From the IMG/VR virus record IMGVR_UViG_3300038809_000036: a stretch of DNA of 64,000 nucleotides; one strand, 5' to 3'. The notes under the pieces are model-generated. The model searched no databases. It had not been told where the DNA came from and saw only the letters and a program-made list of their open reading frames with translations. The position numbers were made by a program, and so were the translations under genes. Source of the stretch: a virus. The stretch's first letter is position 1. Every line of letters begins with the position of its first letter. Positions 1 through 63,396 of the stretch are shown in pieces.

Positions 1-345
1 GGCGAGCGCCGCGGCGGGCGTCAGAAGGGTACGCCGAACAAGCGGACGGAGGCGCGGGCAGCTTTCCAGGCAGGTCGCCTCGATGTCTCCGGCGCATCTC
101 CCCTCGACATCATCCTGGGCGCGGCCCGGGCGGCTTGGGCGGAGGCCCACCGCACAGATGGCGTGATTGACCTGCGCATGGCCAGGGTCGCTGCCGACAT
201 CGCCAAGGACGCCGCGCCTTACCTGCACTCGAAGCTCATGCCAGCCTCGCAGCCCGGCGGCGACGACGACATGGCGAAGGCCCGGCGCATCAAGGGCATG
301 CTCGACGAGATCGAGGGCGCGATTGACCAGCCCGACACCGAGTAG
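1..345 (+). CDS. terS: Terminase small subunit, 5'-truncated copy (complete copy at 56312-56680)
   Basis: Same sequence as the 3' part of 56312-56680; lies directly before terL. Confidence 0.8.
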   Translation, partial: GERRGGRQKGTPNKRTEARAAFQAGRLDVSGASPLDIILGAARAAWAEAHRTDGVIDLRMARVAADIAKDAAPYLHSKLMPASQPGGDDDMAKARRIKGMLDEIEGAIDQPDTE

Positions 346-1675
346 CGCACTCACCCCGCGCTGGACGCGCCTACGGTTCCACCCGACGCAGCGGGCCTAC
401 TGGACCAGCCCGCACCGCTTCAACACCGTCCCGGCCGGCCGCCGATCCGGTAAGACCGAGCAGGCCAAACGCAAGCTGATCAAGGCGGCGCTCCGCGGCA
501 CGGCGTTCGAGCGGCCCCGATTCTTCGCTGGAGCACCGACCCGGGACCAGGCGAAGCGGATCTACTGGGACGACCTGAAGGCGATGATCCCGGCCGAGCT
601 GCTGCTGGGGCGCCCATCCGAGACCGACCTGTCGATCCGGCTGGTGAACGGGTCCGAGCTCGTGGTCGTCGGCCTCGACAAGCCGGAGCGCATCGAGGGC
701 CAGCCCTGGGACGGCGGCGTGCTCGACGAGTTCGCGAACATGAAGGCCCATGCCTGGGCGGCGAACGTCCGCCCGGCGCTCTCGGATCGGCAAGGGTGGT
801 GCGACCTGATCGGCGTGCCCGAAGGCCGGAACCACTACTACGACCTCGACCGCATGGCGCGGGCCGAGATGCAGGCGAAGGGTGCCGGCTCCGAGTGGGG
901 CGCCTTCACCTGGACCTCCGCCGAGATCCTGCCCGCGGAGGAGATCGCCTCCGCCCGCCGCGACCTCGACGAGCTGACGTTCCAGCAGGAATACGAGGCC
1001 TCCTTCGTCAACTTCGAGGGTCGGGCCTACTACCCGTTCACCGAGGCGGTGCATTGCCAGCGCCTCACCTACGACCCGGCCCGGCCGCTCGCCCTGTGCT
1101 TCGACTTCAACGTCGATCCGGGCGTCGCGGTCATCGCGCAGGAGCAGCGCCTACCGAACGGCCAGGACGGCACCGGCATCATCGGTGAGGTCCACATCCC
1201 GCGGAACTCGAACACCCCCGCGGTATGCCGTCGGATCATCCAGGACTGGGGCCGGCACGCGGGCCGCGTGGTGTGCTTCGGCGATGCGTCGGGCGGCGCC
1301 CGGGGCTCGGCCAAGGTGGCGGGCTCGGACTGGGACCTGATCCGGCGCGAGCTCGGCGGCACGTTCGGCCAGCGGCTCTTCTTCGAGGTGCCAGCGGCGA
1401 ACCCCGCGGTGCGCGCCCGGGTCAACGCGGTGAACACCCGGCTGAAGGCCGGCGACGGCACGGTCCGCATGATGGTCGACCCCGCCCGGGCGCCGAACGT
1501 CGTGAAAGACCTCGAAGGCGTCCGGCTGCTGGCCGGTGGCTCTGGTGAGATCGACAAACGGGCCGACCCGGCGCTGTCGCATATAAGTGACGGCCTAGGC
1601 TATTTCATAGCGAGAGTTTTTCCGATTGCAGAGACCGGCAAGGTAGCTACCGGGACGACTGTCGGAATGTATTGA
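323..1675 (+). CDS. terL: Terminase large subunit
   Basis: Walker A (AGRRSGKT), Walker B (GGVLDE), C-terminal nuclease (FDFN...D, HISDGLGY). Probable TTG start at 323 after GAGG, overlapping the end of terS; the ORF-track start at 167 looks spurious. Confidence 0.93.
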   Translation: MTSPTPSSALTPRWTRLRFHPTQRAYWTSPHRFNTVPAGRRSGKTEQAKRKLIKAALRGTAFERPRFFAGAPTRDQAKRIYWDDLKAMIPAELLLGRPSETDLSIRLVNGSELVVVGLDKPERIEGQPWDGGVLDEFANMKAHAWAANVRPALSDRQGWCDLIGVPEGRNHYYDLDRMARAEMQAKGAGSEWGAFTWTSAEILPAEEIASARRDLDELTFQQEYEASFVNFEGRAYYPFTEAVHCQRLTYDPARPLALCFDFNVDPGVAVIAQEQRLPNGQDGTGIIGEVHIPRNSNTPAVCRRIIQDWGRHAGRVVCFGDASGGARGSAKVAGSDWDLIRRELGGTFGQRLFFEVPAANPAVRARVNAVNTRLKAGDGTVRMMVDPARAPNVVKDLEGVRLLAGGSGEIDKRADPALSHISDGLGYFIARVFPIAETGKVATGTTVGMY

Positions 1676-1742
1676 TGTTGTAGCCTATCGCATCTGGCTA
1701 TTGGATATGGTATGCTTCTCTCGATTAGGCGAGAGAATTGCC

Positions 1743-2372
1743 GTGACTGACCCGATTGCTATCAGCGAGACTGCCCAAGACTATGAAGGAGAGCGGTTTT
1801 ATCGCCACGACGGCCCAAAGCGTTATTTCCGTCGGCCGCAGCGGTCTGGTGAAACGTACCTTCACCGCGTTGTGTGGTCCCGGCATAACGGCGCCATTCC
1901 GACAGGTGGTCACGTCCACCACAAGGACGGCGATCGCGGCAACAATGGCATCGGCAATCTCGAACTGCTGACGCCGAGGCAGCACGTTCAGCACCATCGC
2001 GATCAGGACCCCGAAAGGTGGAAGGCTGATCGGGCGCGCGGACTGGAAGCCGCACGAGAACGCGCAAAAGAATGGCACGCTAGCCCTGAGGGCCGAGCAT
2101 GGCACCGCGCGCATAGGGCAACGCATGCCAGTGCGGTTGAGGCCAGAACCATTGCCTGCACCTGCGAGGCATGCGGAACGGCTTTCATGGCCACGAGAAA
2201 AGCTCAGTTCTGCTGCCGAGCATGCAAAGCCGAAGGACGGCGCCGATCGGGCGTGGATGACGAGACCCGCACGTGCGCTCACTGCGCCGAGCCGTTCAAG
2301 GTGAACCGCTATGTCGCCAAACGATTCTGCTCTCGCTCATGCTCGTCGCGTTCTAGGTCTGTGACGGCCTGA
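1743..2372 (+). CDS. Free-standing HNH endonuclease with C-terminal Cys-rich zinc fingers
   Basis: HVHHKDGDRGNNGIGNLELL motif; CxxC clusters; lower GC than neighbours; likely GTG start at 1743. Confidence 0.85.
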   Translation: MTDPIAISETAQDYEGERFYRHDGPKRYFRRPQRSGETYLHRVVWSRHNGAIPTGGHVHHKDGDRGNNGIGNLELLTPRQHVQHHRDQDPERWKADRARGLEAARERAKEWHASPEGRAWHRAHRATHASAVEARTIACTCEACGTAFMATRKAQFCCRACKAEGRRRSGVDDETRTCAHCAEPFKVNRYVAKRFCSRSCSSRSRSVTA

Positions 2373-4021
2373 TGCCGCTCTCGTCGAAGCATCCGAAATA
2401 CGCGGAGGCCGCGCCCGACTGGAAGGTGGTTCGCGACACCCACGCCGGTGAGCGCCGGGTGAAGGAGCTCGGCACCGAGTACCTGCCGGCGACTTCCGGC
2501 ATGATCGCGGCCGGGTTCATGAGCGGCGTCAGCAGCCATGCCCTGATCGGCCGGCAGCGCGAGGATGGCCAGGTAGAGGCCCGCGTCGGCGGCTCATACC
2601 TCAACGAGGGCCAGGCCCAGTACGACGCCTACCGCTGCCGGGCGGTGTTCCACCCGCTGGTCGCCGCCTCCGCCGAGGCGCTGATCGGCATCATGCATCG
2701 CAAGCCGCCGACGATCGAGCTGCCCAAAAAGCTGGAATCGCTGCGGGAGGACTGCACCCAGGACCGCGAGGGCCTGGCGACGCTGCTGCGGCGCATCAAC
2801 GAGGAGCAGCTGCAAACCGGACGGCTCGGCCTGCTGCTCGACGTGCGCGGCGATCTCGGGCCAGGGGCGCTGCCCTACCTCTCGACCTACACCGCCGAGA
2901 GCATCCTGAACTGGGGCGTGGACCGGGTCACCTCGCCCGGTAAGCTCCTGTTCGCGGTGCTCGACGAGAGCGGCGACCAGCTGCAGGACGATCTGAGCTA
3001 CGCGCACCAGCGGCGCTACCTTGTGCTGGGCGACGCCGCCACGGAGTTCGTGAGGCGGGCCGCCGGCGCGGACGCCGAGATGCCGGCCGAGGGCTACGTC
3101 GCTGCTGCGGTGACCGACACGGACGAGGCTGCGGCTCTGCCGTTCAAGGCGCCGCAGATCGCCGGCCAGGGTCTCCCCGAGATCCCGTTCGTGACGATCG
3201 GCGCCAAGGACCTGCAATGGGATCCGGACGCGCCGCCGCTGCTGCGGGTCGCCTCCATGGCGCTGGCGATCTACCGAGGCGAGGCCGACTACAGGCACGC
3301 GCTGTTCATGCAGGGGCAGGAGACGCTGGTCGTCATCGGCGCCAAGAGCGGGAGCGCCTACGCGGAGCCGGGCGAGGCCGTGAAGGGCCAGCCGCTACAG
3401 CTCGGTGCCAACGGCCGTATCGACCTCGAGGTGGACGGCGACGCCAAGTTCATCGGCGTCTCGTCCACGGGCCTCTCGGCCATGCGGGATGCGATCCGGG
3501 ACGACAAGACCGCAGCCGCGGAGATGGGTGCCCAGATCATCGGCGACCGGTCCGGCGGCGCGGAATCGGGCGACGCCCTGGAGATCCGCGTCGCGGCCCG
3601 GACCGCCACTCTGTCGAGCGTCGCGCTCGCCGGCGCGCAGGGTCTTGAGCGCATCCTGAAGATGGCCGCCACCTGGGTCGGGGCGGACCCGGACGAGGTG
3701 AAGGTCACCCCGAACCTCGACTTCGCCGGAACGCCGATCACCGGCTCCGACATCCTGCAGATCACCCAGGCCAAGAGCATGGGCCTGCCGCTCTCCTGGG
3801 AGAGCATCCACGACTGGCTGGCCCGGAAGGGCTTCACCTCCAAGACCTACGAGGAGGAGGAGGACCAGATCGAGGGCGAGGGGCCAGCCCTCTCCGGTTC
3901 GGGAGAGGGTGGCAGCAGCCTCGACGACGGCGACGACGAAGCCACGGACGACGACGCGGCCGCGGTCACGGATGACGACCTGAAGGGCCTGTTCGCGCCC
4001 GAGACTCTGGCCCAGGCCTGA
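2372..4021 (+). CDS. Portal protein (DUF4055-like)
   Basis: 549 aa downstream of terL; N-terminal HPxY...W motif, acidic tail, typical position. Confidence 0.85.
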   Translation: MPLSSKHPKYAEAAPDWKVVRDTHAGERRVKELGTEYLPATSGMIAAGFMSGVSSHALIGRQREDGQVEARVGGSYLNEGQAQYDAYRCRAVFHPLVAASAEALIGIMHRKPPTIELPKKLESLREDCTQDREGLATLLRRINEEQLQTGRLGLLLDVRGDLGPGALPYLSTYTAESILNWGVDRVTSPGKLLFAVLDESGDQLQDDLSYAHQRRYLVLGDAATEFVRRAAGADAEMPAEGYVAAAVTDTDEAAALPFKAPQIAGQGLPEIPFVTIGAKDLQWDPDAPPLLRVASMALAIYRGEADYRHALFMQGQETLVVIGAKSGSAYAEPGEAVKGQPLQLGANGRIDLEVDGDAKFIGVSSTGLSAMRDAIRDDKTAAAEMGAQIIGDRSGGAESGDALEIRVAARTATLSSVALAGAQGLERILKMAATWVGADPDEVKVTPNLDFAGTPITGSDILQITQAKSMGLPLSWESIHDWLARKGFTSKTYEEEEDQIEGEGPALSGSGEGGSSLDDGDDEATDDDAAAVTDDDLKGLFAPETLAQA

Positions 4022-5286
4022 TGCCCGCCGCCCGGAAATCGGGCCCGAGCAACCCGGGCTTCGACGCCAAGCATCCCCGCGCGGCCGGCGGCCGGTTCGG
4101 CAGCAAGGGCGGGACCGAGAAGCCGGGCCGCAAGCTGATCGGCGAGGAGCGGCTCAAGACCTCTGGCGTGACGGTTGACGACGCGATCGAGGTCCTGTCC
4201 AGCCGGGTCCGCGCCTACCAAGGCGCCAAGACGGTTCGGGACTTCGTCGAGGACCACCCCAAGGGTCGCGCCTACGCGCTGCGCAAGCTGGCGGCAGACC
4301 ACAAGGCCGGGCGGATCGGGTTCAAGGGCGCCGCACAGGCGCCGAAGCAGGCTGCGGGCTCCGGGGCGGCCATCGACCCGAAGCTGTCCGACGGCTCGTT
4401 CCGGGCCAACACCGAGCGGGTCACCGAGGGGCTGAAGGGCGACGACTTCCTGATCTCGCTCAACGGCAGCAAGCGCTACCTGATGGGCATCACGGTCGAT
4501 CAGGCCGCAGCGAACCACCCGAAGGGCCGCGCGGCCGGACTCAAGCAGATCGCCGCCGACCTGAAGGCCGGGCGGCTGCAGGCGGAGCGGACCAAGGGGG
4601 CGAAGGCCAAGGCGCCAGCCAGGAACGCGGATATCGAGCCCGGCGAGGGTATGCGCCCCTCCATGCTGCCGGGTGAGGAATCGTTCTCGTGGGGCTCGGG
4701 CACGACCCGCACGTTCCGCGACCAGGTTCGGAAGGGTTACGACGCGGTCCCGGCCAAGATCCGGACCATGCTCCGTGAGAAGGGTGTGACGATCAGCGGG
4801 CCGAAGAGCGCGTCGCAGTTCGACAGCAGTTTCGCCGGTAGCGACGCCCGAGGCCACACCGCTGGCTCGACGCTGGAGCACGCCCCGGGATTTTACCGGC
4901 CGACCTTCAAGCAGGTGGTCGTCAGCGAGCAGCACCTCGACGTGTACGCGCCGGGCAAGGGGTATCGGAAGGCCGACGATCCTGCCGGCATCATCCGGCA
5001 CGAGATCGGGCACGCCGTCGATTGGAGCCAGGGGCGGCTGAGCAACAAGCCCGAGTTCGCCAAGGCCTTCAATGAAGACCTTCGCGCGTTCGAGCGGGGC
5101 GGTGGCAAGCGTACCGATCCGCGGTATGCCTACTACCTGCAGCGGGATGATGCCGGGCCGTCCGAGATGTTCGCGGAGCAGTTCAACCAGCACCTGGGCG
5201 GTTCGGGCGACCCCGGCAGCGACCTGCGGGCGACGTTCCCCAGGACGGCCGGCTACATCGCGGATCTCGTGAAGAGGCTGTCGTGA
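4021..5286 (+). CDS. Head-module protein with C-terminal zinc metallopeptidase domain (anthrax-LF/gluzincin-like)
   Basis: IIRHEIGHAVD (HExxH) plus downstream SEMFAEQF; N-terminal HPRAAGGRF motif. Confidence 0.7.
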   Translation: MPAARKSGPSNPGFDAKHPRAAGGRFGSKGGTEKPGRKLIGEERLKTSGVTVDDAIEVLSSRVRAYQGAKTVRDFVEDHPKGRAYALRKLAADHKAGRIGFKGAAQAPKQAAGSGAAIDPKLSDGSFRANTERVTEGLKGDDFLISLNGSKRYLMGITVDQAAANHPKGRAAGLKQIAADLKAGRLQAERTKGAKAKAPARNADIEPGEGMRPSMLPGEESFSWGSGTTRTFRDQVRKGYDAVPAKIRTMLREKGVTISGPKSASQFDSSFAGSDARGHTAGSTLEHAPGFYRPTFKQVVVSEQHLDVYAPGKGYRKADDPAGIIRHEIGHAVDWSQGRLSNKPEFAKAFNEDLRAFERGGGKRTDPRYAYYLQRDDAGPSEMFAEQFNQHLGGSGDPGSDLRATFPRTAGYIADLVKRLS

Positions 5287-5510
5287 AGCAGCGGTGGTTC
5301 TTCCAGATCGTCGACGGCGCCGTGCTCATGCGGGCCCGGGTCGAGGTAGACGGCGCGATTGCGGACGCTCAGTCCCGCATCGAGCCGGGCGATGACAGCG
5401 GAATCAAGGGCCTGACCTATGAAGCCCTGGCCGAGGCCGGCGGCGGGGTCCTTGAGATCGACGATGACGGCTCCTTCACGATCACGTCGGCGGACGACGA
5501 GCAGGACTGA
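5283..5510 (+). CDS. Small acidic hypothetical protein (candidate peptidase inhibitor)
   Basis: 75 aa; GTGA overlap with the peptidase stop; D/E-rich. Confidence 0.6.
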   Translation: MKQRWFFQIVDGAVLMRARVEVDGAIADAQSRIEPGDDSGIKGLTYEALAEAGGGVLEIDDDGSFTITSADDEQD

Positions 5511-5518
5511 ACCACGGC

Positions 5519-6610
5519 ATGCCGGCGACGCTCAACGAGACGCTGCTCGACGCCCAGGTCTCGCACCTGATCGGCCTTCAGCGCCTCGGCTCGGGCATCC
5601 TGCGTAAGATCCTGGCCCTGTTGAACCGCACGGACAGCGACATCGCCGACACGATCCGCGAGCGCCTCGCCGACGTCGAGCCCGGGACGATCGAGACCAC
5701 CTTCACCACCGAGCGGCTGAACCTGCTGCTCGACGCCATCCGAGCCATCGGCGACAGGGTGGGTGACGAGATCCAGGCCCGGCTGCTGAAGGAAGCGCTC
5801 GGCCTGGCCGAATACGAGGCCGAGTTTCAGGTCAGCACGATCACCGAGCACCTGCCGGTGCGCTTCGACGTGGTGCAGCCCACCATCGAGCAGCTGCAGG
5901 CCGTGGTGACCAAGCGACCGTTCCAGGGTCGGCTGCTGCGGGAATGGGCCAAGGGCCTCGGCAGCGACCGCAGCCGCCGCGTCCATGATGCCATCCGGAT
6001 CGGGATGGTGGAGGGCGAGACCACCGACCAGATCGTCCAGCGCGTGCGTGGGCGCCGGTCAATGGACTACAAGGACGGGGTGCTCGAAATCAGCCGCCGG
6101 GACGCCGAGGCGGTCGTCCGGACGGCGGTGACCCACATCGCCAGCGGCGCCCAGCAGGCGACCTACGCGGCGAACGCCGACCTGGTGAAATCCTGGCGCT
6201 TCGTGGCGACGCTGGACATGCGCACAACAGTTTCGTGTGCATCCCTTGACGGCAAGGTCTTCCCGGTGGGCAAGGGGCCGATGCCTCCCCGGCATTTCCG
6301 GTGCCGCAGTTCCTCGGTTCCCGTCACCGCATCGTTCCGAGACCTCGGCATCGACCTCGACGAGGTCCCCGAGGGCATGCGGGCATCCATGGATGGGGCG
6401 GTCCCGGCGAGCCTGACCTACGGCGACTGGCTGAAGAAGCAGCCGGCCTCCGTGCAGGACGACATCCTCGGCTCGACACGCGGCAAGCTGTTTCGGGCGG
6501 GCGACCTGCCCATTGACCGATTTACCGACCGGGCCGGCGCCGAGTACACGCTGGACCAGCTGCGGCGGCGCGAGGCGGGGGCTTTCAGGAAGGCGGGGTT
6601 GGCGGCATGA
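5519..6610 (+). CDS. Head morphogenesis protein (MuF / SPP1 gp7 family)
   Basis: ATLDMRTTVSCASLDG...PPRHFRCRS motif. Confidence 0.9.
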   Translation: MPATLNETLLDAQVSHLIGLQRLGSGILRKILALLNRTDSDIADTIRERLADVEPGTIETTFTTERLNLLLDAIRAIGDRVGDEIQARLLKEALGLAEYEAEFQVSTITEHLPVRFDVVQPTIEQLQAVVTKRPFQGRLLREWAKGLGSDRSRRVHDAIRIGMVEGETTDQIVQRVRGRRSMDYKDGVLEISRRDAEAVVRTAVTHIASGAQQATYAANADLVKSWRFVATLDMRTTVSCASLDGKVFPVGKGPMPPRHFRCRSSSVPVTASFRDLGIDLDEVPEGMRASMDGAVPASLTYGDWLKKQPASVQDDILGSTRGKLFRAGDLPIDRFTDRAGAEYTLDQLRRREAGAFRKAGLAA

Positions 6611-6888
6611 AGGGAATGAGCATGGGCGTGAAATCCACCGCTGCAGGTCGCAAACCTCCCGCTAGAGACGACTTCAACGCCGCTGATGCTAGGTTCATGC
6701 AAGACATGCTGGCTCATCACGAAATGGCAATCGCCATGTCAGAAAATATTATTAAAGACGGCAAGAATTCGAGCGTTTTAAAGCTTGCAAGGTCGATCAA
6801 GTCAGCGCAGTTGGATGAGATTTTGTTGATGCGTAAGTGGCTTTATAGCCGGGATCTTCCGGAAGATTCTTCGAAGGTGAAAATGTGA
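6607..6888 (+). CDS. DUF305 ferritin-like protein (moron)
   Basis: DARFMQDMLAHHEMAIAMS...LARSIKSAQLDEI..MRKWL pattern; markedly AT-rich. Confidence 0.75.
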   Translation: MKGMSMGVKSTAAGRKPPARDDFNAADARFMQDMLAHHEMAIAMSENIIKDGKNSSVLKLARSIKSAQLDEILLMRKWLYSRDLPEDSSKVKM

Positions 6889-6940
6889 GCGCTAAGCAAG
6901 GCCCTACGTATGAAACCTTTAAAAAGGTTGGAGGCACGCA

Positions 6941-7045
6941 ATGAAGACTATGAGTATGGGTGGCAAGCCGAAGCTGACAAAGAACCCAGGTGGCGGGCAG
7001 AGGAAGACAAAATCTGCAAAGGGTGCGACGAAGGGCAAGAAGTAG
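6941..7045 (+). CDS. 34-aa Lys/Gly-rich peptide MKTMSMGGKPKLTKNPGGGQRKTKSAKGATKGKK (not in ORF track)
   Basis: GGAGG RBS at 6930-6934, ATG 6941, TAG 7043-7045. Confidence 0.55.
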   Translation: MKTMSMGGKPKLTKNPGGGQRKTKSAKGATKGKK

Positions 7046-7061
7046 GCTACGCTCCTCGCTG

Positions 7062-7289
7062 ATGGCCGACACCCGTCGCACTGAGAAGCCCGAACGCCCG
7101 ATCCCGCACATCCAATGGACATGCGGGACGTGCGAGCGTGAGGCTGGTGTGGCGAGCAATGCCACGACCCGGATCCGCAAGGGCGGCTACGTCAACCTGA
7201 AGACCGGCAAGCTTACGGGCGGCACGTTCTACGAGGTCTGCGCCATGTGCTTGGCGCGCGGGCGGACGACGATCGTCTGCCGGGCCTGA
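7062..7289 (+). CDS. Small zinc-ribbon protein
   Basis: CGTC...CAMC pairs; ATG 7062. Confidence 0.55.
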   Translation: MADTRRTEKPERPIPHIQWTCGTCEREAGVASNATTRIRKGGYVNLKTGKLTGGTFYEVCAMCLARGRTTIVCRA

Positions 7290-7330
7290 ACACCGAAATC
7301 TGAGATCCGCGCCCCGAGCGTGGTCACCCG

Positions 7331-7375
7331 CCGGCAGCCATGGCGCTGACCGGCCTCTCCCGCCATGGGGCGGGA
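7331..7375 (+). promoter_or_regulatory. Two ATGG-loop hairpins in the leader of the 7391 gene
   Basis: CCGGCAGCC-ATGG-CGCTGACCGG (imperfect) and TCCCGCC-ATGG-GGCGGGA (perfect 7 bp). Confidence 0.7.
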
Positions 7376-7390
7376 CGACGGAGCCCCACC

Positions 7391-7831
7391 ATGTCGAACC
7401 TGACCGACTTCGCACGGAGTGAACTCGCGCGCCTGCGCACGCCCAGCGACGAGCCCGACAAGATGCAGGACGCCATCGAGGCGAACGTGCTCAAGATCGT
7501 GGAGGTGTTCGCCGAGGCGGGCCACAGCGGCTCGTCCGCGCCCTACACCCTTGGCATCCTCGAAAAGGTGCTGCGCTTCGAGCCCCTGACGCCGCTCACC
7601 GGCGAAGACGATGAGTGGTTCGTCCATGATCACGACGACGAGTGCTACGCGCAGAACAAGCGCTGCGGCCGCGTCTTCAAGCGGCGGAACGGTACCGCTT
7701 ACGACATTGAGGCGGCCGTTTTCCGCGATCCCGATGGCTCGTGCTGGACCGGCAAGGAGAGCCGCCGCGACGTGACGTTCCCCTACGTGCCGAAGACCGA
7801 GATTGTCGACCGGCCAGCCACCGTCGCCTGA
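7391..7831 (+). CDS. Hypothetical phage protein
   Basis: GGAG RBS, ATG 7391, phage-typical codon usage. Confidence 0.7.
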   Translation: MSNLTDFARSELARLRTPSDEPDKMQDAIEANVLKIVEVFAEAGHSGSSAPYTLGILEKVLRFEPLTPLTGEDDEWFVHDHDDECYAQNKRCGRVFKRRNGTAYDIEAAVFRDPDGSCWTGKESRRDVTFPYVPKTEIVDRPATVA

Positions 7832-7852
7832 CCCCACCTCTTCTCGACTTTT

Positions 7853-7896
7853 CCGGCCGCGATGGCGCGCGCCGGGCCCTGCGTCATGGGACGCAG
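7853..7896 (+). promoter_or_regulatory. Two ATGG-loop hairpins in the scaffold leader
   Basis: CCGGCCGCG-ATGG-CGCGCGCCGG and CTGCGTC-ATGG-GACGCAG. Confidence 0.75.
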
Positions 7897-7914
7897 CCAT
7901 AGGAGCCCACCACC

Positions 7915-8739
7915 ATGAAGCTCAAAAAGGTCTACGACACCGAAGCCGACATTCCCGCCGACGTCCTCTCGTTCTACGAGGAGCGCGACGGCAAGTGGCA
8001 TCTCACCTTGGAGATCGAGGGTAGCGCCAACCAAGACGACGTGACCCGGCTGAACGGCGCTCTCACGAAGGAGCGCAACGACCACAAGGCGACCAAGGAC
8101 AAGCTGCGCGCGTTCGATGGCCTCGACCCGCAGGAAACCCGCGATCGCCTCGACAAGCTGACCGACATCGAGGCCAACCCGGACGCGACGGTCGAGCAGC
8201 GCGTGACCAGCGAAGTCGAGCGGCGCCTGAAAGCCAAGACCGCGCCACTGGAACGGCAGATCGCCCAGGCCAACGAGGCGAAGGCCGCCGCAGAACGCGA
8301 GCGTGACGAGACCCGCGGCACCCTGCGCGGCCGCACCATTTCCGACGAGGTCCGCGCCGCGGCCTCGAAGGCCAAGATCATCGATTCCGCCGTCGACGAC
8401 GTGCTGATGTACGGCACCAGCGTGTTCGAGGTCGGCGAGGACGGCCAGGTCGTCACCAAGGACGGCGTCGGCGTCACCCCGGGCCTGAAGCCCGAAGCGT
8501 GGCTCTCCGACATGAAGGAGCGCCGCCCGCACTGGTGGCCCGCCTCGCAGGGCGCCGGCTCGCTCGGCGGCCGCGGCGGTTCGGCCGGCGGCGACAACCC
8601 GTTCACGGCCGAGGCCTGGAACGTCACCGAGCAGGGCAAGATCGCCGCGGCCGACCTGGCGAAGGCCGAGCGTCTCGCGAAGCTCGCCGGCACCACGCTC
8701 GGCGGCGCCAAGCCGGCCCCGCGCAACCGCGCGGCCTGA
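7915..8739 (+). CDS. Capsid scaffolding protein
   Basis: Charged coiled coil, HWWPASQGAGS/NPF C-terminal motifs, upstream of the capsid gene. Confidence 0.8.
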   Translation: MKLKKVYDTEADIPADVLSFYEERDGKWHLTLEIEGSANQDDVTRLNGALTKERNDHKATKDKLRAFDGLDPQETRDRLDKLTDIEANPDATVEQRVTSEVERRLKAKTAPLERQIAQANEAKAAAERERDETRGTLRGRTISDEVRAAASKAKIIDSAVDDVLMYGTSVFEVGEDGQVVTKDGVGVTPGLKPEAWLSDMKERRPHWWPASQGAGSLGGRGGSAGGDNPFTAEAWNVTEQGKIAAADLAKAERLAKLAGTTLGGAKPAPRNRAA

Positions 8740-8750
8740 AGGAGGTCGCT

Positions 8751-9227
8751 ATGGCTGAGAAGACCACGCCGACCAACGAGCAGGCGGTCTCCGACAAGGT
8801 GGATCCGCCGCGGCTGCGCGGCCGCCTGCCGATCCTCTGCCTCGACTTCGACGGTGTCCTTCACGGATATCAGAGCGGCTGGCAGGGGGCGGCGATCATC
8901 CCCGATCCGCCGGTGCCGGGCGCAGTTGAGTTCCTCCACGCCGCCGTCGAGCGGTTCCGCGTGGTGATCTACAGCAGCCGGTCAGGTCAGCCCGGCGGTA
9001 TCGATGCCATGCGCGGCTGGCTGCACATGCAGGTTCGCGCGGTGATCGAGGATCGCGGTGAGGCCGAGCATGTGCTCGGGCGCCTTGAGTTCGCGACCGA
9101 GAAGCCCGCGGCCTTCGTCACTATCGACGACCGCGCCATCACGTTCACGGGCACGTGGCCGAGCCTCGACGAGGTCGCCGCTTTCCAGCCCTGGAACAAA
9201 AAGCCGCCGATCGCTGGCGCGGCCTGA
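8751..9227 (+). CDS. HAD-superfamily phosphatase/nucleotidase-like protein
   Basis: ILCLDFDGVLH (DxD motif I), SSR (motif II), IDDR (motif IV); GGAGG RBS. Confidence 0.75.
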   Translation: MAEKTTPTNEQAVSDKVDPPRLRGRLPILCLDFDGVLHGYQSGWQGAAIIPDPPVPGAVEFLHAAVERFRVVIYSSRSGQPGGIDAMRGWLHMQVRAVIEDRGEAEHVLGRLEFATEKPAAFVTIDDRAITFTGTWPSLDEVAAFQPWNKKPPIAGAA

Positions 9228-9235
9228 CCCTTTCC

Positions 9236-9348
9236 GGCGGCCCATGGGGGCTGCCAACACCATCACCGGCCGCCGCCATGGGGCGCGCGGCCACCCTTCC
9301 TCGACCAAGAGCCCGAACACGACCGGCCGGCCATGGGGCCCGGCTTGG
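9236..9348 (+). promoter_or_regulatory. Three ATGG-loop hairpins in the major capsid leader
   Basis: 9236-9255, 9268-9292 and 9323-9348, each a GC stem closing C-ATGG-G. Confidence 0.75.
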
Positions 9349-9392
9349 CGGTGCTGACGGATCAGACCCTCAAGCCTCCATAGGAGCCCACC

Positions 9393-10421
9393 ATGGCAAC
9401 CGGCGTTCTCCGCCTTTCCGACGTCATCGTCCCGTCCATCTTCGTCCCGATGGTCCGCCGCCTGGCGGTGGAGAAGACGGCGCTCATCACCTCCGGTGCG
9501 ATGGTCGCCGACCCGCTGCTCGACCGCTTCCTGGCCGGCCCGGGCCTGACCATCGATATGCCGCGCCTGAACTCGATCGACCGGCAGGACGTCGAGAACG
9601 TTTCCTCCGACGATCCGACCGTGTTCTCGACCCCGAACAAGCCGTCGACCGGCGACGAGATCGCGGTGCGCCTGTCGCGCAACAACTCGTGGTCGCAGAT
9701 GGATCTCGTGCGGGCGCTGCTGGCCGCCGATCCGCTGGCGCAGCTGGCCAACGACATCGCGCAGTACTGGGCCTACCGCCGCCAGCGCGCGGTGATCGCC
9801 CACCTCGCCGGCGTCTTCGCCGCCAACGCGGCCGCGACCGACGCGAGCCACGTGCAGAACGACATGACCCGGGACATCTCGGGTGCGAGCTACACGGCGG
9901 GCGTGACCGACTTCAACGGTGCCGCCTTCATCCAGGCGCTGCTCACCATGGGCGACGCCATGGGCGGCATCGCGCTCGTCGCCATGCACTCGGTGGTCTA
10001 CGCGAGCGCACTGACCAAGAACCTGATCCAGTTCCGGCTGGACAGCGAGGCCAACCCGACCATCCCGACCTACATGGGCAAGGATGTCACCCTCGACGAT
10101 TCCATGCCCAACAACGCGGGCGTGTTCGAGACCTGGCTGTTCGGCCGCGGCTCGGTGACCTACGGCACCGGCTCGCCCGACGTCCCCAACGAGGTGCTGC
10201 GCGTCCCGGGCGCCGGCAACGGCGGCGGTCAGGAGACCATGTGGGACCGCGTCGAGTGGGCCCACCACGTGCCGGGCACGGCCTACGTCGGCACCCCGCC
10301 CAAGGGCGGCCCGACCAACGCCGCCACCACCAACAACCTCGCCGCGGCGACGTCCTGGGCCCGTATCGCGAAGGACCGCCGGTCCATCCCGATCGCTCGC
10401 ATCGTCACCCGCGAGTTCTGA
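9393..10421 (+). CDS. Major capsid protein
   Basis: 342 aa, strong codon bias, follows scaffold; RLSDVIVPxIF N-terminus typical of this head type. Confidence 0.88.
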   Translation: MATGVLRLSDVIVPSIFVPMVRRLAVEKTALITSGAMVADPLLDRFLAGPGLTIDMPRLNSIDRQDVENVSSDDPTVFSTPNKPSTGDEIAVRLSRNNSWSQMDLVRALLAADPLAQLANDIAQYWAYRRQRAVIAHLAGVFAANAAATDASHVQNDMTRDISGASYTAGVTDFNGAAFIQALLTMGDAMGGIALVAMHSVVYASALTKNLIQFRLDSEANPTIPTYMGKDVTLDDSMPNNAGVFETWLFGRGSVTYGTGSPDVPNEVLRVPGAGNGGGQETMWDRVEWAHHVPGTAYVGTPPKGGPTNAATTNNLAAATSWARIAKDRRSIPIARIVTREF

Positions 10422-10430
10422 CGCTCGCTC

Positions 10431-10452
10431 CGAGGCGCGTTCGCGCGCCTCG
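10431..10452 (+). terminator. Perfect 9-bp hairpin after the capsid gene (no U-tract; terminator or stabiliser)
   Basis: CGAGGCGCG-TTCG-CGCGCCTCG. Confidence 0.45.
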
Positions 10453-10488
10453 CCGCCCGCCCCGTAGCTCGATCACAGGAGGGCTGCC

Positions 10489-11007
10489 ATGCCCCCGCGC
10501 AAGAACGACGACCAGACCGACGGCCAGGACGACGTGGCCGGCCGCAACGCCGCTTCCGCCGAGGCCAACCGCGGCCAGTCCGCCGAGGGCGAGGCCCCGG
10601 CCGGCACGCAGATGGAGGCCAAGCTCAAGACCGCCGCCGACAGCTCGGTCTCACCGAAATCCTCGACCCTGCAGAACCCCGATGCCGAGATCCGAGCCGA
10701 CCTGACCCAGGACGTGCTCACGGCCAATCGCGAGGCCATGCAGGCCGAGGTGCGCTCCGGCAAGGGCTCGTCCCAGGGGCTGAGCAAGCTCCAGGAGCTG
10801 CATCAGGCGGTGGCCGACGCCCAGGGCGCGGTCGACGCCGCGATCGAGAAGCGCAACACGGCCCGGGACGCCTATGACCGCGAGGTCGAGGCGCAGGCCG
10901 TCGGGTCGGCGCAGCCGTTCGGCGAGCTCGTCGCGGCCGCCCACGCCGCCGCCGACAAGCGGGCCGCCGAGGAGGCGGAACTCCGCAAGCGGCAGCTGGC
11001 TCGGTAG
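10489..11007 (+). CDS. Hypothetical coiled-coil protein
   Basis: AGGAG RBS; 172 aa, Ala/Glu-rich. Confidence 0.7.
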   Translation: MPPRKNDDQTDGQDDVAGRNAASAEANRGQSAEGEAPAGTQMEAKLKTAADSSVSPKSSTLQNPDAEIRADLTQDVLTANREAMQAEVRSGKGSSQGLSKLQELHQAVADAQGAVDAAIEKRNTARDAYDREVEAQAVGSAQPFGELVAAAHAAADKRAAEEAELRKRQLAR

Positions 11008-55286: not shown

Positions 55287-56126
55287 GTGAGCCAAAGGCT
55301 GACCCGGAAGCAGCGGCTGCGGTTGAAGCTGGAGCGGGAGCGAGCCCACAAGGCGTTCATGCGCCGAGGCGAGATCCTGCAGGACGAGCGGGCCGAACGC
55401 GACGAGGCGGACGCAGCGAAGGCGGACGAGCCCACGGAGAGCCCACGGGAGCGGCACGAACGGGAGCGCCGAGAGCGGGAGGCCGAGCGCATCGCCGCCC
55501 GCCGGGCCGAGCACGAGCTGCCGCCCGGCAAGCAATGGGCTATGGTGCAGGCCTGCGTCGGCCACACCGGCAAGTTGTGCGACAAGCTCCGGAACGCCGG
55601 CATCCCGTTCTTCCGGCCCCGGGACGAGATCGAGCAGCGGCTTGCCTCTGGCCGCATCCGCCGAATCCGGATGCCGCTATTCGACCACACCGTGTTCGTC
55701 GGTTTGGAGCAGCGGGGCCAACTGGAGCGCTTGGCCGTCGAGCATCCCTGGCTGATGGAGCGGCGGGTCTACGGCACCATGCCGTGCATGCGTCACGACC
55801 GGGCGTTCGCTTGGGACGTCGAGCGGATCGAGCGGCGGCAGACCGGAGTCGACGAGGCTGGCAACCCGGTGATCGATCCGGTGACCGTGCCCGACCAGGA
55901 GATGCGCTCGTTCGCGGAGGTGCTGATCAGGGCGGCGCCGATCCTTGATGACCTCGACAGGATCGAGATCGGCGAGACGGTGCGGGTGGTCGATGGCCCG
56001 TTCGCCAGCTTCGACGGGATCATCGAGGAGACCTACGAGAAGCTGAACCGATACAAGGTCTCGGTGAACATTTTCGGCCGAGCCACGCCGGTGGAGCTGG
56101 AGCGTCGGCAGGTTGAGCGGACGTGA
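55287..56126 (+). CDS. NusG-family antiterminator (NGN+KOW) with Arg-rich N-terminal extension
   Basis: [10 protein letters not shown] (NGN); [19 protein letters not shown]...[12 protein letters not shown] (KOW); last gene before the late operon. Confidence 0.88.
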
Positions 56127-56140
56127 TCCACACCCTGCAG

Positions 56141-56311
56141 TTGACTCGTCGTCCGGGCTCTGAATCTATGCGGCCCAGGACGACGCCCCTTGTACTCCCC
56201 GGCGACGGGTCGAAGGATGAGCTGGTGGCCCTGCCCCTGAGGCTTCTCAGGCGGCGAAAATGGCGGCTCGTGCCCGCCGAACACCCACCTCGAAATAGCG
56301 AGAACTAGCCA
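56141..56311 (+). promoter_or_regulatory. Candidate late promoter and leader
   Basis: TTGACT at 56141, AT-rich GAATCTAT at 56162; hairpin CCTGAG-GCTT-CTCAGG; GGCGGCGAAAATG. Confidence 0.45.
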
Positions 56312-56680
56312 ATGGCTCGTGGCGGATCGCTCCCGGGCGAGCGCCGCGGCGGGCGTCAGAAGGGTACGCCGAACAAGCGGACGGAGGCGCGGGCAGCTTT
56401 CCAGGCAGGTCGCCTCGATGTCTCCGGCGCATCTCCCCTCGACATCATCCTGGGCGCGGCCCGGGCGGCTTGGGCGGAGGCCCACCGCACAGATGGCGTG
56501 ATTGACCTGCGCATGGCCAGGGTCGCTGCCGACATCGCCAAGGACGCCGCGCCTTACCTGCACTCGAAGCTCATGCCAGCCTCGCAGCCCGGCGGCGACG
56601 ACGACATGGCGAAGGCCCGGCGCATCAAGGGCATGCTCGACGAGATCGAGGGCGCGATTGACCAGCCCGACACCGAGTAG
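56312..56680 (+). CDS. terS: Terminase small subunit
   Basis: GERRGGRQKGTPNK N-terminus, AAPYLHSKL motif, upstream of terL. Confidence 0.85.
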   Translation: MARGGSLPGERRGGRQKGTPNKRTEARAAFQAGRLDVSGASPLDIILGAARAAWAEAHRTDGVIDLRMARVAADIAKDAAPYLHSKLMPASQPGGDDDMAKARRIKGMLDEIEGAIDQPDTE

Positions 56681-58010: not shown

Positions 58011-58077
58011 TGTTGTAGCCTATCGCATCTGGCTATTGGATATGGTATGCTTCTCTCGATTAGGCGAGAGAATTGCC

Positions 58078-58707
58078 GTGACTGACCCGATTGCTATCAG
58101 CGAGACTGCCCAAGACTATGAAGGAGAGCGGTTTTATCGCCACGACGGCCCAAAGCGTTATTTCCGTCGGCCGCAGCGGTCTGGTGAAACGTACCTTCAC
58201 CGCGTTGTGTGGTCCCGGCATAACGGCGCCATTCCGACAGGTGGTCACGTCCACCACAAGGACGGCGATCGCGGCAACAATGGCATCGGCAATCTCGAAC
58301 TGCTGACGCCGAGGCAGCACGTTCAGCACCATCGCGATCAGGACCCCGAAAGGTGGAAGGCTGATCGGGCGCGCGGACTGGAAGCCGCACGAGAACGCGC
58401 AAAAGAATGGCACGCTAGCCCTGAGGGCCGAGCATGGCACCGCGCGCATAGGGCAACGCATGCCAGTGCGGTTGAGGCCAGAACCATTGCCTGCACCTGC
58501 GAGGCATGCGGAACGGCTTTCATGGCCACGAGAAAAGCTCAGTTCTGCTGCCGAGCATGCAAAGCCGAAGGACGGCGCCGATCGGGCGTGGATGACGAGA
58601 CCCGCACGTGCGCTCACTGCGCCGAGCCGTTCAAGGTGAACCGCTATGTCGCCAAACGATTCTGCTCTCGCTCATGCTCGTCGCGTTCTAGGTCTGTGAC
58701 GGCCTGA
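58078..58707 (+). CDS. HNH endonuclease (repeat copy)
   Basis: Same as 1743-2372. Confidence 0.85.
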   Translation: MTDPIAISETAQDYEGERFYRHDGPKRYFRRPQRSGETYLHRVVWSRHNGAIPTGGHVHHKDGDRGNNGIGNLELLTPRQHVQHHRDQDPERWKADRARGLEAARERAKEWHASPEGRAWHRAHRATHASAVEARTIACTCEACGTAFMATRKAQFCCRACKAEGRRRSGVDDETRTCAHCAEPFKVNRYVAKRFCSRSCSSRSRSVTA

Positions 58708-61621: not shown

Positions 61622-61845
61622 AGCAGCGGTGGTTCTTCCAGATCGTCGACGGCGCCGTGCTCATGCGGGCCCGGGTCGAGGTAGACGGCGCGATTGCGGA
61701 CGCTCAGTCCCGCATCGAGCCGGGCGATGACAGCGGAATCAAGGGCCTGACCTATGAAGCCCTGGCCGAGGCCGGCGGCGGGGTCCTTGAGATCGACGAT
61801 GACGGCTCCTTCACGATCACGTCGGCGGACGACGAGCAGGACTGA
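61618..61845 (+). CDS. Small acidic protein (repeat copy)
   Basis: Same as 5283-5510. Confidence 0.6.
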   Translation: MKQRWFFQIVDGAVLMRARVEVDGAIADAQSRIEPGDDSGIKGLTYEALAEAGGGVLEIDDDGSFTITSADDEQD

Positions 61846-61853
61846 ACCACGGC

Positions 61854-63223: not shown

Positions 63224-63396
63224 GCGCTAAGCAAGGCCCTACGTATGAAACCTTTAAAAAGGTTGGAGGCACGCAATGAAGACTATGAGTATGGGTGGCA
63301 AGCCGAAGCTGACAAAGAACCCAGGTGGCGGGCAGAGGAAGACAAAATCTGCAAAGGGTGCGACGAAGGGCAAGAAGTAGGCTACGCTCCTCGCTG

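What the first reader, a model, noticed from the sequence alone, without database searches (positions are those of the whole stretch)
7331..9395. Seven AUGG-loop hairpins in the leaders of three head-module genes: candidate protein-recognised RNA element
Seen: the three intergenic gaps before the 7391 gene, the scaffold gene and the major capsid gene hold 2, 2 and 3 GC-rich hairpins (7331-7353, 7358-7375, 7853-7875, 7879-7896, 9236-9255, 9268-9292, 9323-9348). The stem sequences differ but stay paired, while the loop is ATGG in all seven (closed by C-G in five, G-C in one, and an imperfect C/C in the first). Five are preceded by or start with CCGGC. Each cluster is followed by a near-identical GGAGCCC(C)ACC(ACC)ATG initiation region. 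Inference: a fixed loop on variable stems suggests recognition by a protein, for antitermination (boxB/nut-like), translational control of head stoichiometry, or RNA processing. I know of no described element like this.
Basis: partly seen in the sequence, partly recalled or inferred. Interest (0 to 1): 0.82.

Follow-up and report, generated by a model that had tools for sequence, protein, structure and literature searches.

The report
Conserved AUGG-loop hairpins before phage head genes
Seven small RNA hairpins with the same four-letter loop (AUGG) sit in front of the scaffold and capsid genes of this Methylobacterium phage. The same kind of hairpin sits there in distant relatives that infect Pseudomonas, Vibrio, Klebsiella and E. 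coli, so it is probably an undescribed control element for making phage heads.

Summary
All seven ATGG-loop hairpins exist at the stated places. Dinucleotide shuffles of the three leaders give 0.04 on average, and the seven are the top seven hits of a hairpin model over the 56-kb genome.

In Methylobacterium phage relatives whose scaffold protein is 64-92% identical, the orthologous leaders keep the loop in all but one instance, while the stems change with compensating substitutions. The element is not in Rfam. It is not a host repeat, an intrinsic terminator or a canonical promoter.

The same architecture recurs in distant cultured relatives (Queuovirinae and allies). One or two A-Y-G-N tetraloop hairpins lie just 5' of the scaffold ribosome-binding site, and one to three lie in the capsid-gene leader. 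The loop is usually AUGG; it is ACGG in E. coli phages CAjan and BRET. ATGG loops are enriched in these leaders (Fisher p = 6e-9).

Best reading: a cis-acting 5'-UTR RNA element read by a trans-acting factor that controls translation or stability of scaffold and capsid mRNA. This is inferred, not shown.

The phage's NusG paralog does not co-vary with the hairpins, so a nut/LoaP-type role is disfavoured.

The hairpin pairs also bound a slot that holds different accessory genes in different phages. Here the cargo is a Tad3 anti-Thoeris homologue, so the "7391 gene" is not a head gene.

The parts
7304..7325 (+). H0: conserved GC-rich hairpin with a variable loop, upstream of the first ATGG hairpin
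   Evidence: MFE fold. Present with different loops in relatives.
7330..7354 (+). H1: outer stem GCCGG/CCGGC, inner stem CAGC/GCTG, loop C-ATGG-C (closing mismatch)
   Evidence: 22 bits. The inner stem covaries in L019/L020/L030.
7358..7375 (+). H2: 7-bp stem, ATGG tetraloop, ends 5 nt before the Shine-Dalgarno of the cargo gene
   Evidence: 29 bits. 5 of 7 pairs show compensatory changes across relatives.
7381..7393 (+). Initiation region GGAGCCCCACC + ATG of the cargo gene
7391..7831 (+). Cargo gene in the slot between hairpin pair 1 and pair 2: Tad3-family (Thoeris inhibitor) homologue
   Evidence: Pfam PF25185, E 1.9e-40, 138 bits. The slot holds unrelated ORFs in L008 and L031 and is empty in L017/L019/L020/L029.
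7852..7876 (+). H3: bulged 9-10 bp stem, ATGG loop closed by G-C
   Evidence: 23.9 bits. Identical in L008 and L031 apart from U.G to C-G at the base.
7879..7896 (+). H4: 7-bp stem, ATGG tetraloop, ends 5 nt before the scaffold Shine-Dalgarno
   Evidence: 26.8 bits.
7900..7917 (+). Initiation region TAGGAGCCCACCACC + ATG of the scaffold gene (7915-8739)
   Evidence: Scaffold assigned by phrog_206, E 5e-44.
9236..9255 (+). H5: 8-bp stem with one G.U pair, ATGG tetraloop
   Evidence: 25.3 bits. In relatives the closing pair is C-G, C/U or C/C.
9268..9292 (+). H6: bulged 10-bp stem, ATGG tetraloop
   Evidence: 23.8 bits. Stem variants with U.G pairs in L019/L020/L030.
9320..9350 (+). H7: extended irregular hairpin with ATGG apical loop
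   Evidence: Invariant except G.U to A-U at one pair. The same shape and GGCC-AUGG-GG core occur before the capsid gene of Pseudomonas phages NP1/PaMx25.
9320..9375 (+). Nearly invariant block (H7 plus about 25 nt downstream)
   Evidence: 91-100% nucleotide identity to relatives whose capsid gene is 77-84% identical. Also present in L024, whose capsid protein is only 62% identical.
9380..9395 (+). Initiation region TAGGAGCCCACC + ATG of the major capsid gene (9393-10421)
   Evidence: Capsid assigned by phrog_247, E 5e-90.

Best explanation
The hairpins are cis-acting elements of the sense-strand mRNA, in the 5' untranslated leaders of the scaffold gene, the major capsid gene and any gene inserted just before the scaffold gene. 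Each presents a fixed tetraloop (AUGG here; A-Y-G-N across the wider phage group), usually closed by C-G, on a stem whose sequence is free to vary.

The most likely mechanism is that a trans-acting factor reads the loop. Binding at the hairpin that abuts the ribosome-binding site would then set how much scaffold and capsid protein is made, by blocking or helping 30S binding or by changing mRNA lifetime. That would tie the two most abundant head proteins to one control.

The element occurs in phages of both alpha- and gamma-proteobacteria. Within the head module the scaffold or capsid protein is the obvious candidate, by analogy with the autoregulation of P22 scaffolding protein (from my own knowledge; no paper was checked).

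Shown: the structures, loop conservation, covariation, position, strand polarity and phylogenetic spread. Inferred: that the RNA rather than the DNA is the active form, that a factor binds, and the direction of the effect.
For: (1) Non-random and specific: 7 in 349 nt against 0.04 in shuffles; top seven model hits in the genome.

(2) Conservation with covariation in Methylobacterium phages: 8 of 17 pairs have double changes, with 90% of cells paired against at most 48% in slid controls. The capsid leader is 95% paired against at most 52% in slid controls. The loop is ATGG in all but one instance.

(3) Polarity: every instance has ATGG on the coding strand. One-sided stem changes are G.U rather than A.C, 13 against 4. 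All one-sided changes are G.U or U.G.

(4) Geometry: the last hairpin of the scaffold/cargo leaders ends 1-5 nt before the Shine-Dalgarno. In Klebsiella phage K4PH164 the 3' arm contains the Shine-Dalgarno.

(5) Deep conservation: in 12 distant phages the leaders (2345 nt) hold 58 tetraloop hairpins, of which 8 are ATGG, 7 ACGG and 5 ATGA. Outside the leaders 2693 hairpins include 14 ATGG (Fisher p 6e-9). In CAjan, 3 of the 5 ACGG hairpins with stems of 5 bp or more in 50 kb (both strands) lie in the two leaders; a fourth, with a 4-bp stem, lies in the capsid leader.

(6) In AT-rich relatives a sigma-70-like promoter sits just upstream of the hairpins, which puts them near the 5' end of a transcript.

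(7) The loop type is lineage-specific (AUGG against ACGG), as expected if it co-evolves with a reader.

(8) It is not a host repeat, not an intrinsic terminator or sigma-70 promoter, and not in Rfam.
Against: No RNA data were available. No RNA run was on record as holding the region, and the runs that could be laid were contigs only, so neither transcripts nor 5' ends could be mapped.

No reader was identified. The NusG paralog fails co-variation. The small CxxC...CxxC protein encoded just upstream has no informative homology.

H5-H7 show little covariation because they barely vary, so for them RNA pairing is compatible with the data but not demonstrated.

One prophage hairpin has lost the loop (GTTG in L004) without obvious decay of the locus.

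The G.U against A.C asymmetry is only marginal (p about 0.05), and the instances are not independent.

The A-Y-G-N generalisation was defined after seeing the data; only ATGG was specified beforehand.
Confidence: 0.45

Rival explanations
1. Factor-independent structural modules of the 5' UTR. Stable hairpins near the 5' end protect the scaffold and capsid mRNAs from 5'-end-dependent decay. They also insulate the ribosome-binding site from upstream sequence, as the 5' stem-loop of the T7 gene 10 leader or engineered insulator hairpins do (from my own knowledge). The loop would be conserved for an intrinsic structural reason.
For: Position directly 5' of the Shine-Dalgarno. Predicted promoters immediately upstream in AT-rich relatives. 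Hairpins with other loops occupy the same leaders in lineages that lack AUGG (L021/L022). A UUCG-loop hairpin follows the capsid gene, so hairpin-bounded mRNA segments are plausible.
Against: AUGG and ACGG are not known extra-stable tetraloop classes. A pure stabiliser does not explain one loop kept across stems of unrelated sequence and across genomes with a wide range of G+C content, here from 45% (CAjan) to 68% (the window). It also does not explain a clean AUGG-to-ACGG switch between lineages.
Confidence: 0.25
2. Transcription-level element. The nascent hairpins recruit or modify an elongation factor, as boxB does for N, the UNCG hairpin does for LoaP, or put RNA does in HK022. RNA polymerase then reads through downstream stops in the long late operon.
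For: The phage encodes a NusG paralog with an Arg-rich N-terminus just before the small-terminase gene (55287-56126). This lead came from earlier finding e1-5327916; the KOW motif is seen and the sequence. LoaP binds a small tetraloop hairpin in operon leaders (PMC12691694). In AT-rich relatives the hairpins are promoter-proximal.
Against: The closest NusG paralog (60% identity) is in a phage without AUGG hairpins (L050). Phages with near-identical hairpins have paralogs of only 27-47% identity. There are no AUGG hairpins near the NusG/terS region. tblastn at E 1e-3 finds no homologue of the paralog in any Queuovirinae record. No intrinsic terminators lie nearby. The loop is neither GNRA-like nor UNCG.
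Confidence: 0.1
3. The selected function is recombinational. The repeated hairpin-plus-RBS cassettes act as portable boundaries at which accessory genes are swapped by homologous recombination, like the PeSL promoter/stem-loop cassettes of T4-type phages.
For: The slot between pair 1 and pair 2 holds three unrelated cargos (Tad3 homologue here, a 115-aa ORF in L008, a 70-aa ORF in L031). It is empty in L017/L019/L020/L029. Pair 2 is almost identical in the three cargo-bearing phages. The leader goes with the scaffold/portal lineage, not with the capsid gene, which places mosaic joints at the capsid leader (L024). PeSL precedent: PMC2839356, PMC4122927.
Against: Recombination needs sequence identity, not a conserved loop on covarying stems. 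The element is kept where no cargo is present, and in very distant phages. This looks like a consequence of having repeated leaders, not the reason the loop is fixed.
Confidence: 0.08
4. A DNA-level site: a protein-binding inverted repeat, a cruciform, or part of a late promoter.
For: The 56-nt block around H7 is more conserved than coding DNA, as a promoter or operator could be. Hairpins in single-stranded DNA would have the same polarity.
Against: The conserved centre is asymmetric (ATGG) and always in the sense orientation. The stems vary freely while keeping complementarity and tolerate G.U, which is not how duplex operator half-sites behave. There is no sigma-70-like match here. In relatives the predicted promoters lie upstream of the hairpins, not over them.
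Confidence: 0.07

Closest known systems
Translational operator hairpins of phages (MS2 and PP7 coat-protein operators, T4 translational repressor sites, phage Mu Com site on mom mRNA); from my own knowledge
   Same: A short hairpin at or beside the ribosome-binding site. Identity lies in the loop while the stem is free to vary. It couples synthesis of a phage protein to the level of another phage protein.
   Different: No binding protein is known here. The loop (AUGG/ACGG tetraloop) matches none of those operators. The hairpins come in clusters of 2-3 and serve two or three genes. The phages are dsDNA siphoviruses.
Autoregulation of P22 scaffolding protein synthesis (free scaffold lowers its own mRNA's output); from my own knowledge, not checked in a paper here
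   Same: Post-transcriptional control of a scaffold gene tied to head assembly. It would explain why exactly the scaffold and capsid leaders carry the element.
   Different: To my knowledge no RNA operator has been defined for P22. The head modules are not the same family. Nothing here shows that scaffold protein binds RNA.
Start-associated sequences (SAS, 5'-GGGATAGGAGCCC) and extended SAS of Cluster K mycobacteriophages (PMC3203893)
   Same: A conserved motif that includes the Shine-Dalgarno and extends past it, 3-7 bp before ATG starts. Part of the sites have an inverted repeat just upstream. Function is unknown and was proposed to concern translation initiation. The window's scaffold and capsid starts carry ATAGGAGCCC, which is 10 of the 13 SAS bases.
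   Different: SAS occur at 11-19 sites per genome and only in the non-structural half. The ESAS repeats are 17 bp, and their variation does not support RNA pairing, so the authors favoured DNA binding. Here there are three sites, in the head module, with covariation that supports pairing. The shared AGGAGCCC may be coincidence between two GC-rich systems.
PeSL (promoter-early stem-loop) cassettes of T4-type phages (PMC2839356, PMC4122927)
   Same: Repeated regulatory cassettes containing a stem-loop flank variable accessory genes and mark the joints of insertions and replacements.
   Different: PeSLs are terminator/early-promoter composites in hyperplastic regions of myoviruses. Here no promoter or terminator consensus is present in this phage, and the loop rather than the whole cassette is the conserved part.
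lambda boxB/nut and the LoaP UNCG hairpin (PMC12691694)
   Same: A small hairpin in a leader with a sequence-specific loop read by an elongation factor. This phage has a NusG paralog with an Arg-rich arm.
   Different: The loop class differs. The position in this phage is far from the start of the late operon. The paralog does not co-vary with the hairpins and was not detected in cultured relatives that carry them.

Membership tests
Any Rfam family | Match to a curated covariance model at its gathering score | tested here: not met
   0 hits over the whole window and over 7 related loci. With E up to 10 on 6900-9500 there is only chance-level noise far below gathering scores.
lambda-type nut site (boxA + boxB) | boxB hairpin with a GNRA-like pentaloop (GAAAA/GAAGA type) | tested here: not met
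   All loops are the tetraloop AUGG.
lambda-type nut site (boxA + boxB) | boxA sequence next to the hairpin, and a position just downstream of the operon's promoter | not tested
   boxA was not searched for. By position, the hairpins lie 7-9 kb downstream of the only promoter-like sequence I saw, which was found by eye at about 56141-56169.
LoaP-type antitermination leader | UNCG tetraloop hairpin in the leader | tested here: not met
   The loop is AUGG. The LoaP definition is taken from PMC12691694.
LoaP-type antitermination leader | A specialised NusG paralog that goes together with the hairpin | tested here: not met
   A paralog is present in the window. A 60%-identical paralog occurs without hairpins (L050), and hairpins occur with paralogs of 27-47% identity. 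No homologue was found in Queuovirinae records.
LoaP-type antitermination leader | Intrinsic terminator downstream in the same leader | tested here: not met
   No terminator-like site on the + strand in 6800-10600.
REP/BIME-type host repeats | Many copies scattered through intergenic regions of the host chromosome | tested here: not met
   In the M. fujisawaense genome only the prophage leader and isolated hits inside genes were found. The first-look filter scored 150 of about 8000 candidates, so the search was not exhaustive. The conserved H7 block occurs in 1 of 301 genomes of the family.
Intrinsic (Rho-independent) terminator | GC-rich hairpin followed by a U run | tested here: not met
   None of the seven is followed by a T run.
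PeSL mobile regulatory cassette | Repeated cassette flanking variable genes at indel joints | tested here: met
   Three different cargos, or none, lie between pair 1 and pair 2 in related phages.
PeSL mobile regulatory cassette | Composite of a terminator stem-loop and an early promoter | tested here: not met
   No promoter-like or terminator-like match in the window's leaders.
Cluster K SAS/ESAS | 13-bp GGGATAGGAGCCC with at most two deviations, 3-7 bp before the start codon | tested here: not met
   The best window sites share 10 of 13 bases (CCATAGGAGCCC at 7897- and 9377-). The definition is from PMC3203893.
Cluster K SAS/ESAS | Many copies per genome, confined to non-structural genes | tested here: not met
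   Only the three head-module sites resemble it.

The most novel reading that the evidence does not exclude
A-Y-G-G tetraloop hairpins are the RNA operators of a head-assembly feedback loop shared by a whole phage lineage (Queuovirinae and allies, from Methylobacterium to E. coli). Unassembled scaffold or capsid protein, or another head-module protein, binds them and throttles translation of both genes. The operator-plus-RBS cassette is portable, so inserted genes such as the Tad3 anti-defence gene inherit head-level expression. A more radical variant: the loops act as start-codon mimics (AUG, or near-cognate ACG, followed by a purine) that dock initiating 30S subunits next to the real start.
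Probability: 0.2. Interest if true: 0.8.

Novelty: new variant of a known kind. Interest (0 to 1): 0.68.

Why it matters
How tailed phages set the ratio of scaffold to capsid protein is poorly understood outside a few model phages. To my knowledge no RNA operator for it has been defined in a dsDNA phage.

A short element that can be searched for now marks the scaffold and capsid leaders of a widespread siphovirus group. That group includes easily handled phages of E. coli, Klebsiella and Pseudomonas, so the question becomes directly testable.

The element also marks an insertion slot used for accessory genes, including an anti-defence gene. That helps in finding such genes and suggests how they acquire strong late expression.

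It would also be a candidate new family for RNA databases.

Tried and rejected
1. Host repeat (REP-like): rejected. The hairpin-model search of the M. fujisawaense genome gave only the prophage plus isolated hits inside genes. The H7 block was found in 1 of 301 family genomes, and the six weak extra hits are coding sequence.

3. Small CxxC...CxxC protein encoded just upstream (7062-7289) as a Com-like reader: no Pfam match and no informative Atlas neighbours. It also exists in the L021/L022 lineage, which has other loops. Left as an untested candidate.

4. Upstream ORFs starting at the loop AUGs: frames and lengths are not conserved among relatives, because a 1-nt indel falls inside the conserved block. 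Rejected.

5. Loop AUGG pairing with the CCAU that precedes the Shine-Dalgarno in two leaders: the CCAU is not conserved. Rejected.

6. Sigma-54 or sigma-70 promoter in the H7 block: matches seen by eye fail on spacing or consensus, and the scan finds none.

7. RNA evidence: no RNA run is on record as holding the region. Laying four runs gave contigs only, with no starts or ends.

8. Exact-pattern scans of IMG/VR returned only the four contigs already known.

9. RNAalifold on the capsid leader proposed pairing between H5 and H6 through the palindrome CCAUGG. There is no covariation for it, and I treat it as a by-product of similar GC-rich arms.

10. Sense against antisense folding energy was not decisive.


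Full report
**What the window is.** Bases 1-7665 are identical to 56336-64000, so the window is a wrapped circular replicon of 56,335 bp with 67.7% G+C. No whole genome is held for it.

The + strand carries a siphovirus-type head module:
- large terminase, 167-1675
- portal, 2372-4021
- an unassigned gene, 4021-5286
- MuF-like protein, 5519-6610
- DUF305 protein, 6607-6888
- a small CxxC...CxxC protein, 7062-7289
- a Tad3-family protein, 7391-7831 (PF25185, E 2e-40)
- scaffold, 7915-8739 (phrog_206)
- a HAD-like protein, 8751-9227
- major capsid protein, 9393-10421 (phrog_247)

The nearest capsid proteins come from Methylobacterium and Methylorubrum genomes. Cultured relatives at 43-57% capsid identity are Queuovirinae and allied genera.

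All seven hairpins appear in the minimum-free-energy folds of the three leaders on the + strand and in direct scans.

They are far from chance. There are 7 in 349 nt, against a mean of 0.04 and a maximum of 2 in 5000 dinucleotide shuffles. The density in the rest of the genome is about 150-fold lower. A covariance model of a single hairpin ranks the seven first in the genome at 22-29 bits, and the next hit scores 18.8.

Whole-leader folding energy is not exceptional. The signal is the common loop.

**Orthologous leaders.** I collected relatives through the capsid protein from IMG/VR, GTDB genomes, metagenomes and public assemblies.

Every relative whose scaffold is 64-92% identical to the window's carries the same arrangement. 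Two ATGG hairpins, preceded by a hairpin with a variable loop, lie before the scaffold gene. Three lie before the capsid gene. The stems differ. For the hairpin next to the scaffold ribosome-binding site they read tcccgcc/ggcggga, ctctgcc/ggcagag, ctgcgtc/gacgcag and ccccgtc/gatgggg.

On the alignment of scaffold and cargo leaders, 8 of 17 pairs have changes on both sides. 90% of cells pair, against at most 48% when partners are slid. The covariation score exceeds all 500 shuffles.

The capsid leader pairs in 95% of cells, against at most 52% slid. It varies too little for much covariation, and all its one-sided changes are G.U or U.G.

Only one instance has lost the loop: GTTG in the M. fujisawaense prophage L004.

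A 56-nt block comprising H7 and the sequence after it is 91-100% identical among phages whose capsid genes are 77-84% identical. It is even present in L024, whose capsid protein is only 62% identical.

**What it is not.**
- Rfam: no family matches.
- Terminator or promoter: no intrinsic-terminator-like or sigma-70-like site lies on the + strand here.
- Host repeat: the model finds only the prophage leader and isolated hits inside genes in the M. fujisawaense genome. The H7 block occurs in 1 of 301 genomes of the family.
- Elsewhere in these phages: within 13-21 kb stretches of related phages the hairpins occur only in these leaders, always on the coding strand.

**Link to lineages and to inserted genes.** Presence of the hairpins follows the scaffold/portal/MuF lineage, not the capsid gene. 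L021 and L022 have capsid proteins 73-76% identical to the window's, but scaffold at most 29% and portal about 36% identical, and they have no ATGG hairpins. Their leaders carry hairpins with other loops.

The hairpin pairs also bound a variable slot:
- In L017, L019, L020, L029 and L030, pair 1 directly precedes the scaffold gene.
- In the window, L008 and L031, a second and almost identical pair precedes the scaffold gene. Three unrelated genes lie between the pairs: the Tad3 homologue here, a 115-aa ORF in L008 and a 70-aa ORF in L031.
- The HAD-like gene is a further insertion, absent from L008 and L009.
- L019 and L020 carry reverse-strand accessory genes just upstream of pair 1: a HEPN_AbiU2 gene (weak Pfam hit) in L019 and a nucleotidyltransferase gene in L020.

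**The wider family.** This was unexpected. Distant cultured relatives have the same architecture despite very different base composition and hosts.

| Phage (locus) | Before the scaffold gene | Capsid-gene leader |
|---|---|---|
| Pseudomonas NP1, PaMx25, Xanthomonas DoCa3 | cacaATGGtgtg and gccacATGAgtggc | an H7-like hairpin, gccaggccATGGggtgctgg |
| Vibrio 1.207.B | acagtcATGGgactgt | a weaker, interrupted ATGG hairpin (gtcgctccATGGggctgcga) and an ATGG at the apex of a terminator-like hairpin |
| Providencia PSTCR4 | gtaacgaaATGGttcgttac | two ATGG hairpins |
| Klebsiella K4PH164 | an 11-bp ATGG hairpin whose 3' arm includes the Shine-Dalgarno | one ATGG hairpin |
| Alteromonas R7M, Roseobacter RDJL3 | ATGG or ATGA loops | ATGG loops |
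| E. coli CAjan, BRET | ACGG loops | ACGG loops |

In CAjan, 3 of the only 5 ACGG hairpins with stems of 5 bp or more in 50 kb (both strands) lie in the two leaders. A fourth, with a 4-bp stem, lies in the capsid leader.

Pooled over 12 largely independent phages, the leaders (2345 nt) contain 58 tetraloop hairpins, of which 8 are ATGG, 7 ACGG and 5 ATGA. Outside the leaders, 2693 hairpins include 14 ATGG, 11 ACGG and 17 ATGA. The Fisher p for ATGG, the loop specified beforehand, is 6e-9.

In AT-rich members, sigma-70-like promoters lie immediately upstream of the hairpins. That places the hairpins near the 5' end of scaffold and capsid transcripts. A Jerseyvirus with a related capsid protein has no intergenic gap and no such element.

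**Mechanism.** The facts point to an element of the sense RNA:
- strict polarity
- stems that vary while staying paired
- tolerance of G.U but hardly of A.C (13 against 4; marginal)
- a position 17-27 nt before the start codon, at the 5' edge of the ribosome-binding site
- promoter-proximal placement in relatives

A loop kept on unrelated stems, across alpha- and gamma-proteobacterial hosts and across a wide range of G+C, and switched cleanly from AUGG to ACGG in one lineage, is best explained by a reader that recognises it.

I therefore favour a translational or mRNA-stability operator for the two most abundant head proteins. This step is inferred. No binding partner was identified.

Candidates and rivals I tested or weighed:
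Its closest homologue (60% identity) is in a phage without the hairpins, phages with identical hairpins have paralogs of 27-47% identity, and cultured carriers have no detectable homologue.
- A factor-independent stabiliser or insulator role remains a serious rival.
- Recombination at the repeated leaders is well supported as a consequence (cassette exchange). It does not explain the fixed loop.

**Comparison with known systems.** Functionally the closest are phage translational operators, and also the Cluster K mycobacteriophage start-associated sequences. The SAS consensus GGGATAGGAGCCC shares ATAGGAGCCC with the window's scaffold and capsid starts (PMC3203893). The element fails the defining features of nut sites, LoaP leaders, REP elements, intrinsic terminators and SAS/ESAS. 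It shares only the behaviour of flanking variable genes with PeSL cassettes (PMC4122927). I found no description of it in the paper library, but those searches were narrow.

**Limits.**
- No transcript data were available.
- The A-Y-G-N generalisation was formed after seeing the data.
- Sampling of distant phages was by hand (14 loci), and NP1, PaMx25 and DoCa3 are near-duplicates. They were counted once.
- The host-genome model search scored only part of its candidates.
- Promoter calls are consensus matches only.

Noticed in passing
window 1-7665 and 56336-64000: The two stretches are identical (0 mismatches). The window is a circular or terminally redundant 56,335-bp phage genome wrapped around, so the hairpin at 63700 is the same one as at 7365.
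   Followed up: yes
window 7391-7831: A Tad3-family (type I Thoeris inhibitor) homologue, PF25185 at E 2e-40. It is inserted in the head module with its own copy of the hairpin-plus-RBS leader. The same slot holds unrelated ORFs in L008 (4584-4931) and L031 (2735-2947), neither with a Pfam match.
   Followed up: partly
window 8751-9227: A HAD-like gene (weak PF18143, phrog_23773) sits 11 nt after the scaffold stop with its own AGGAGG. It is absent from the 96-98% related phages L008/L009, so it is a recent insertion.
   Followed up: partly
window 10431-10452: A 9-bp GC hairpin with a UUCG tetraloop and no T run lies right after the capsid gene. It may act as a 3' stabiliser or a non-canonical stop for the capsid mRNA.
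   Followed up: no
window 55287-56126 and 56127-56312: A NusG paralog (NGN plus KOW) with an Arg-rich N-terminal arm. It is followed by a 185-nt gap with a promoter-like TTGACT-17-ATCTAT (seen by eye, about 56141-56169) before the small terminase gene. Homologues of 27-60% identity occupy the same place in L048, L049 and L050, often after a GcrA-like gene.
   Followed up: partly
window 9320-9375: The 3' arm of H7 overlaps the 5' arm of an alternative hairpin (GGCUUGG...UCAAGCC). All stem bases of the alternative are invariant, and its apical part is the only variable stretch among relatives. It may be a two-state switch, but there is no covariation to test it.
   Followed up: partly
L004 4935-4960 (M. 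fujisawaense prophage): This is the only orthologous hairpin with a changed loop: tcccgccGTTGggcggga, with the stem intact.
   Followed up: no
L019 4176-4865 and L020 4607-4921: Reverse-strand accessory genes (HEPN_AbiU2, a weak Pfam hit; nucleotidyltransferase) are inserted between the small CxxC protein gene and the first hairpin cluster. This marks the site as a hotspot for defence-related cargo.
   Followed up: no
window 6889-7060: An AT-rich stretch in a 68% G+C genome, with a promoter-like and a terminator-like site on the - strand. It may hold a small - strand gene or RNA.
   Followed up: no
L031 511-2412: The MuF-like gene is 633 aa instead of 361, with a weak intein-splicing Pfam hit. 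It may be an intein in a head morphogenesis gene.
   Followed up: no
L069 1455-1511 (Sphingomonas phage MMDA13): The leader segment ccatgggacagg is complementary to cctgtcccatg at the capsid start codon. The predicted fold sequesters the start.
   Followed up: no
L070, L071, L064 capsid leaders: In the enterobacterial phages the capsid-leader hairpin arms are CCUUCC and GGAAAGG (anti-SD-like and SD-like). A CCUUUCC repeat precedes the real Shine-Dalgarno, which allows alternative pairings with the ribosome-binding site.
   Followed up: no
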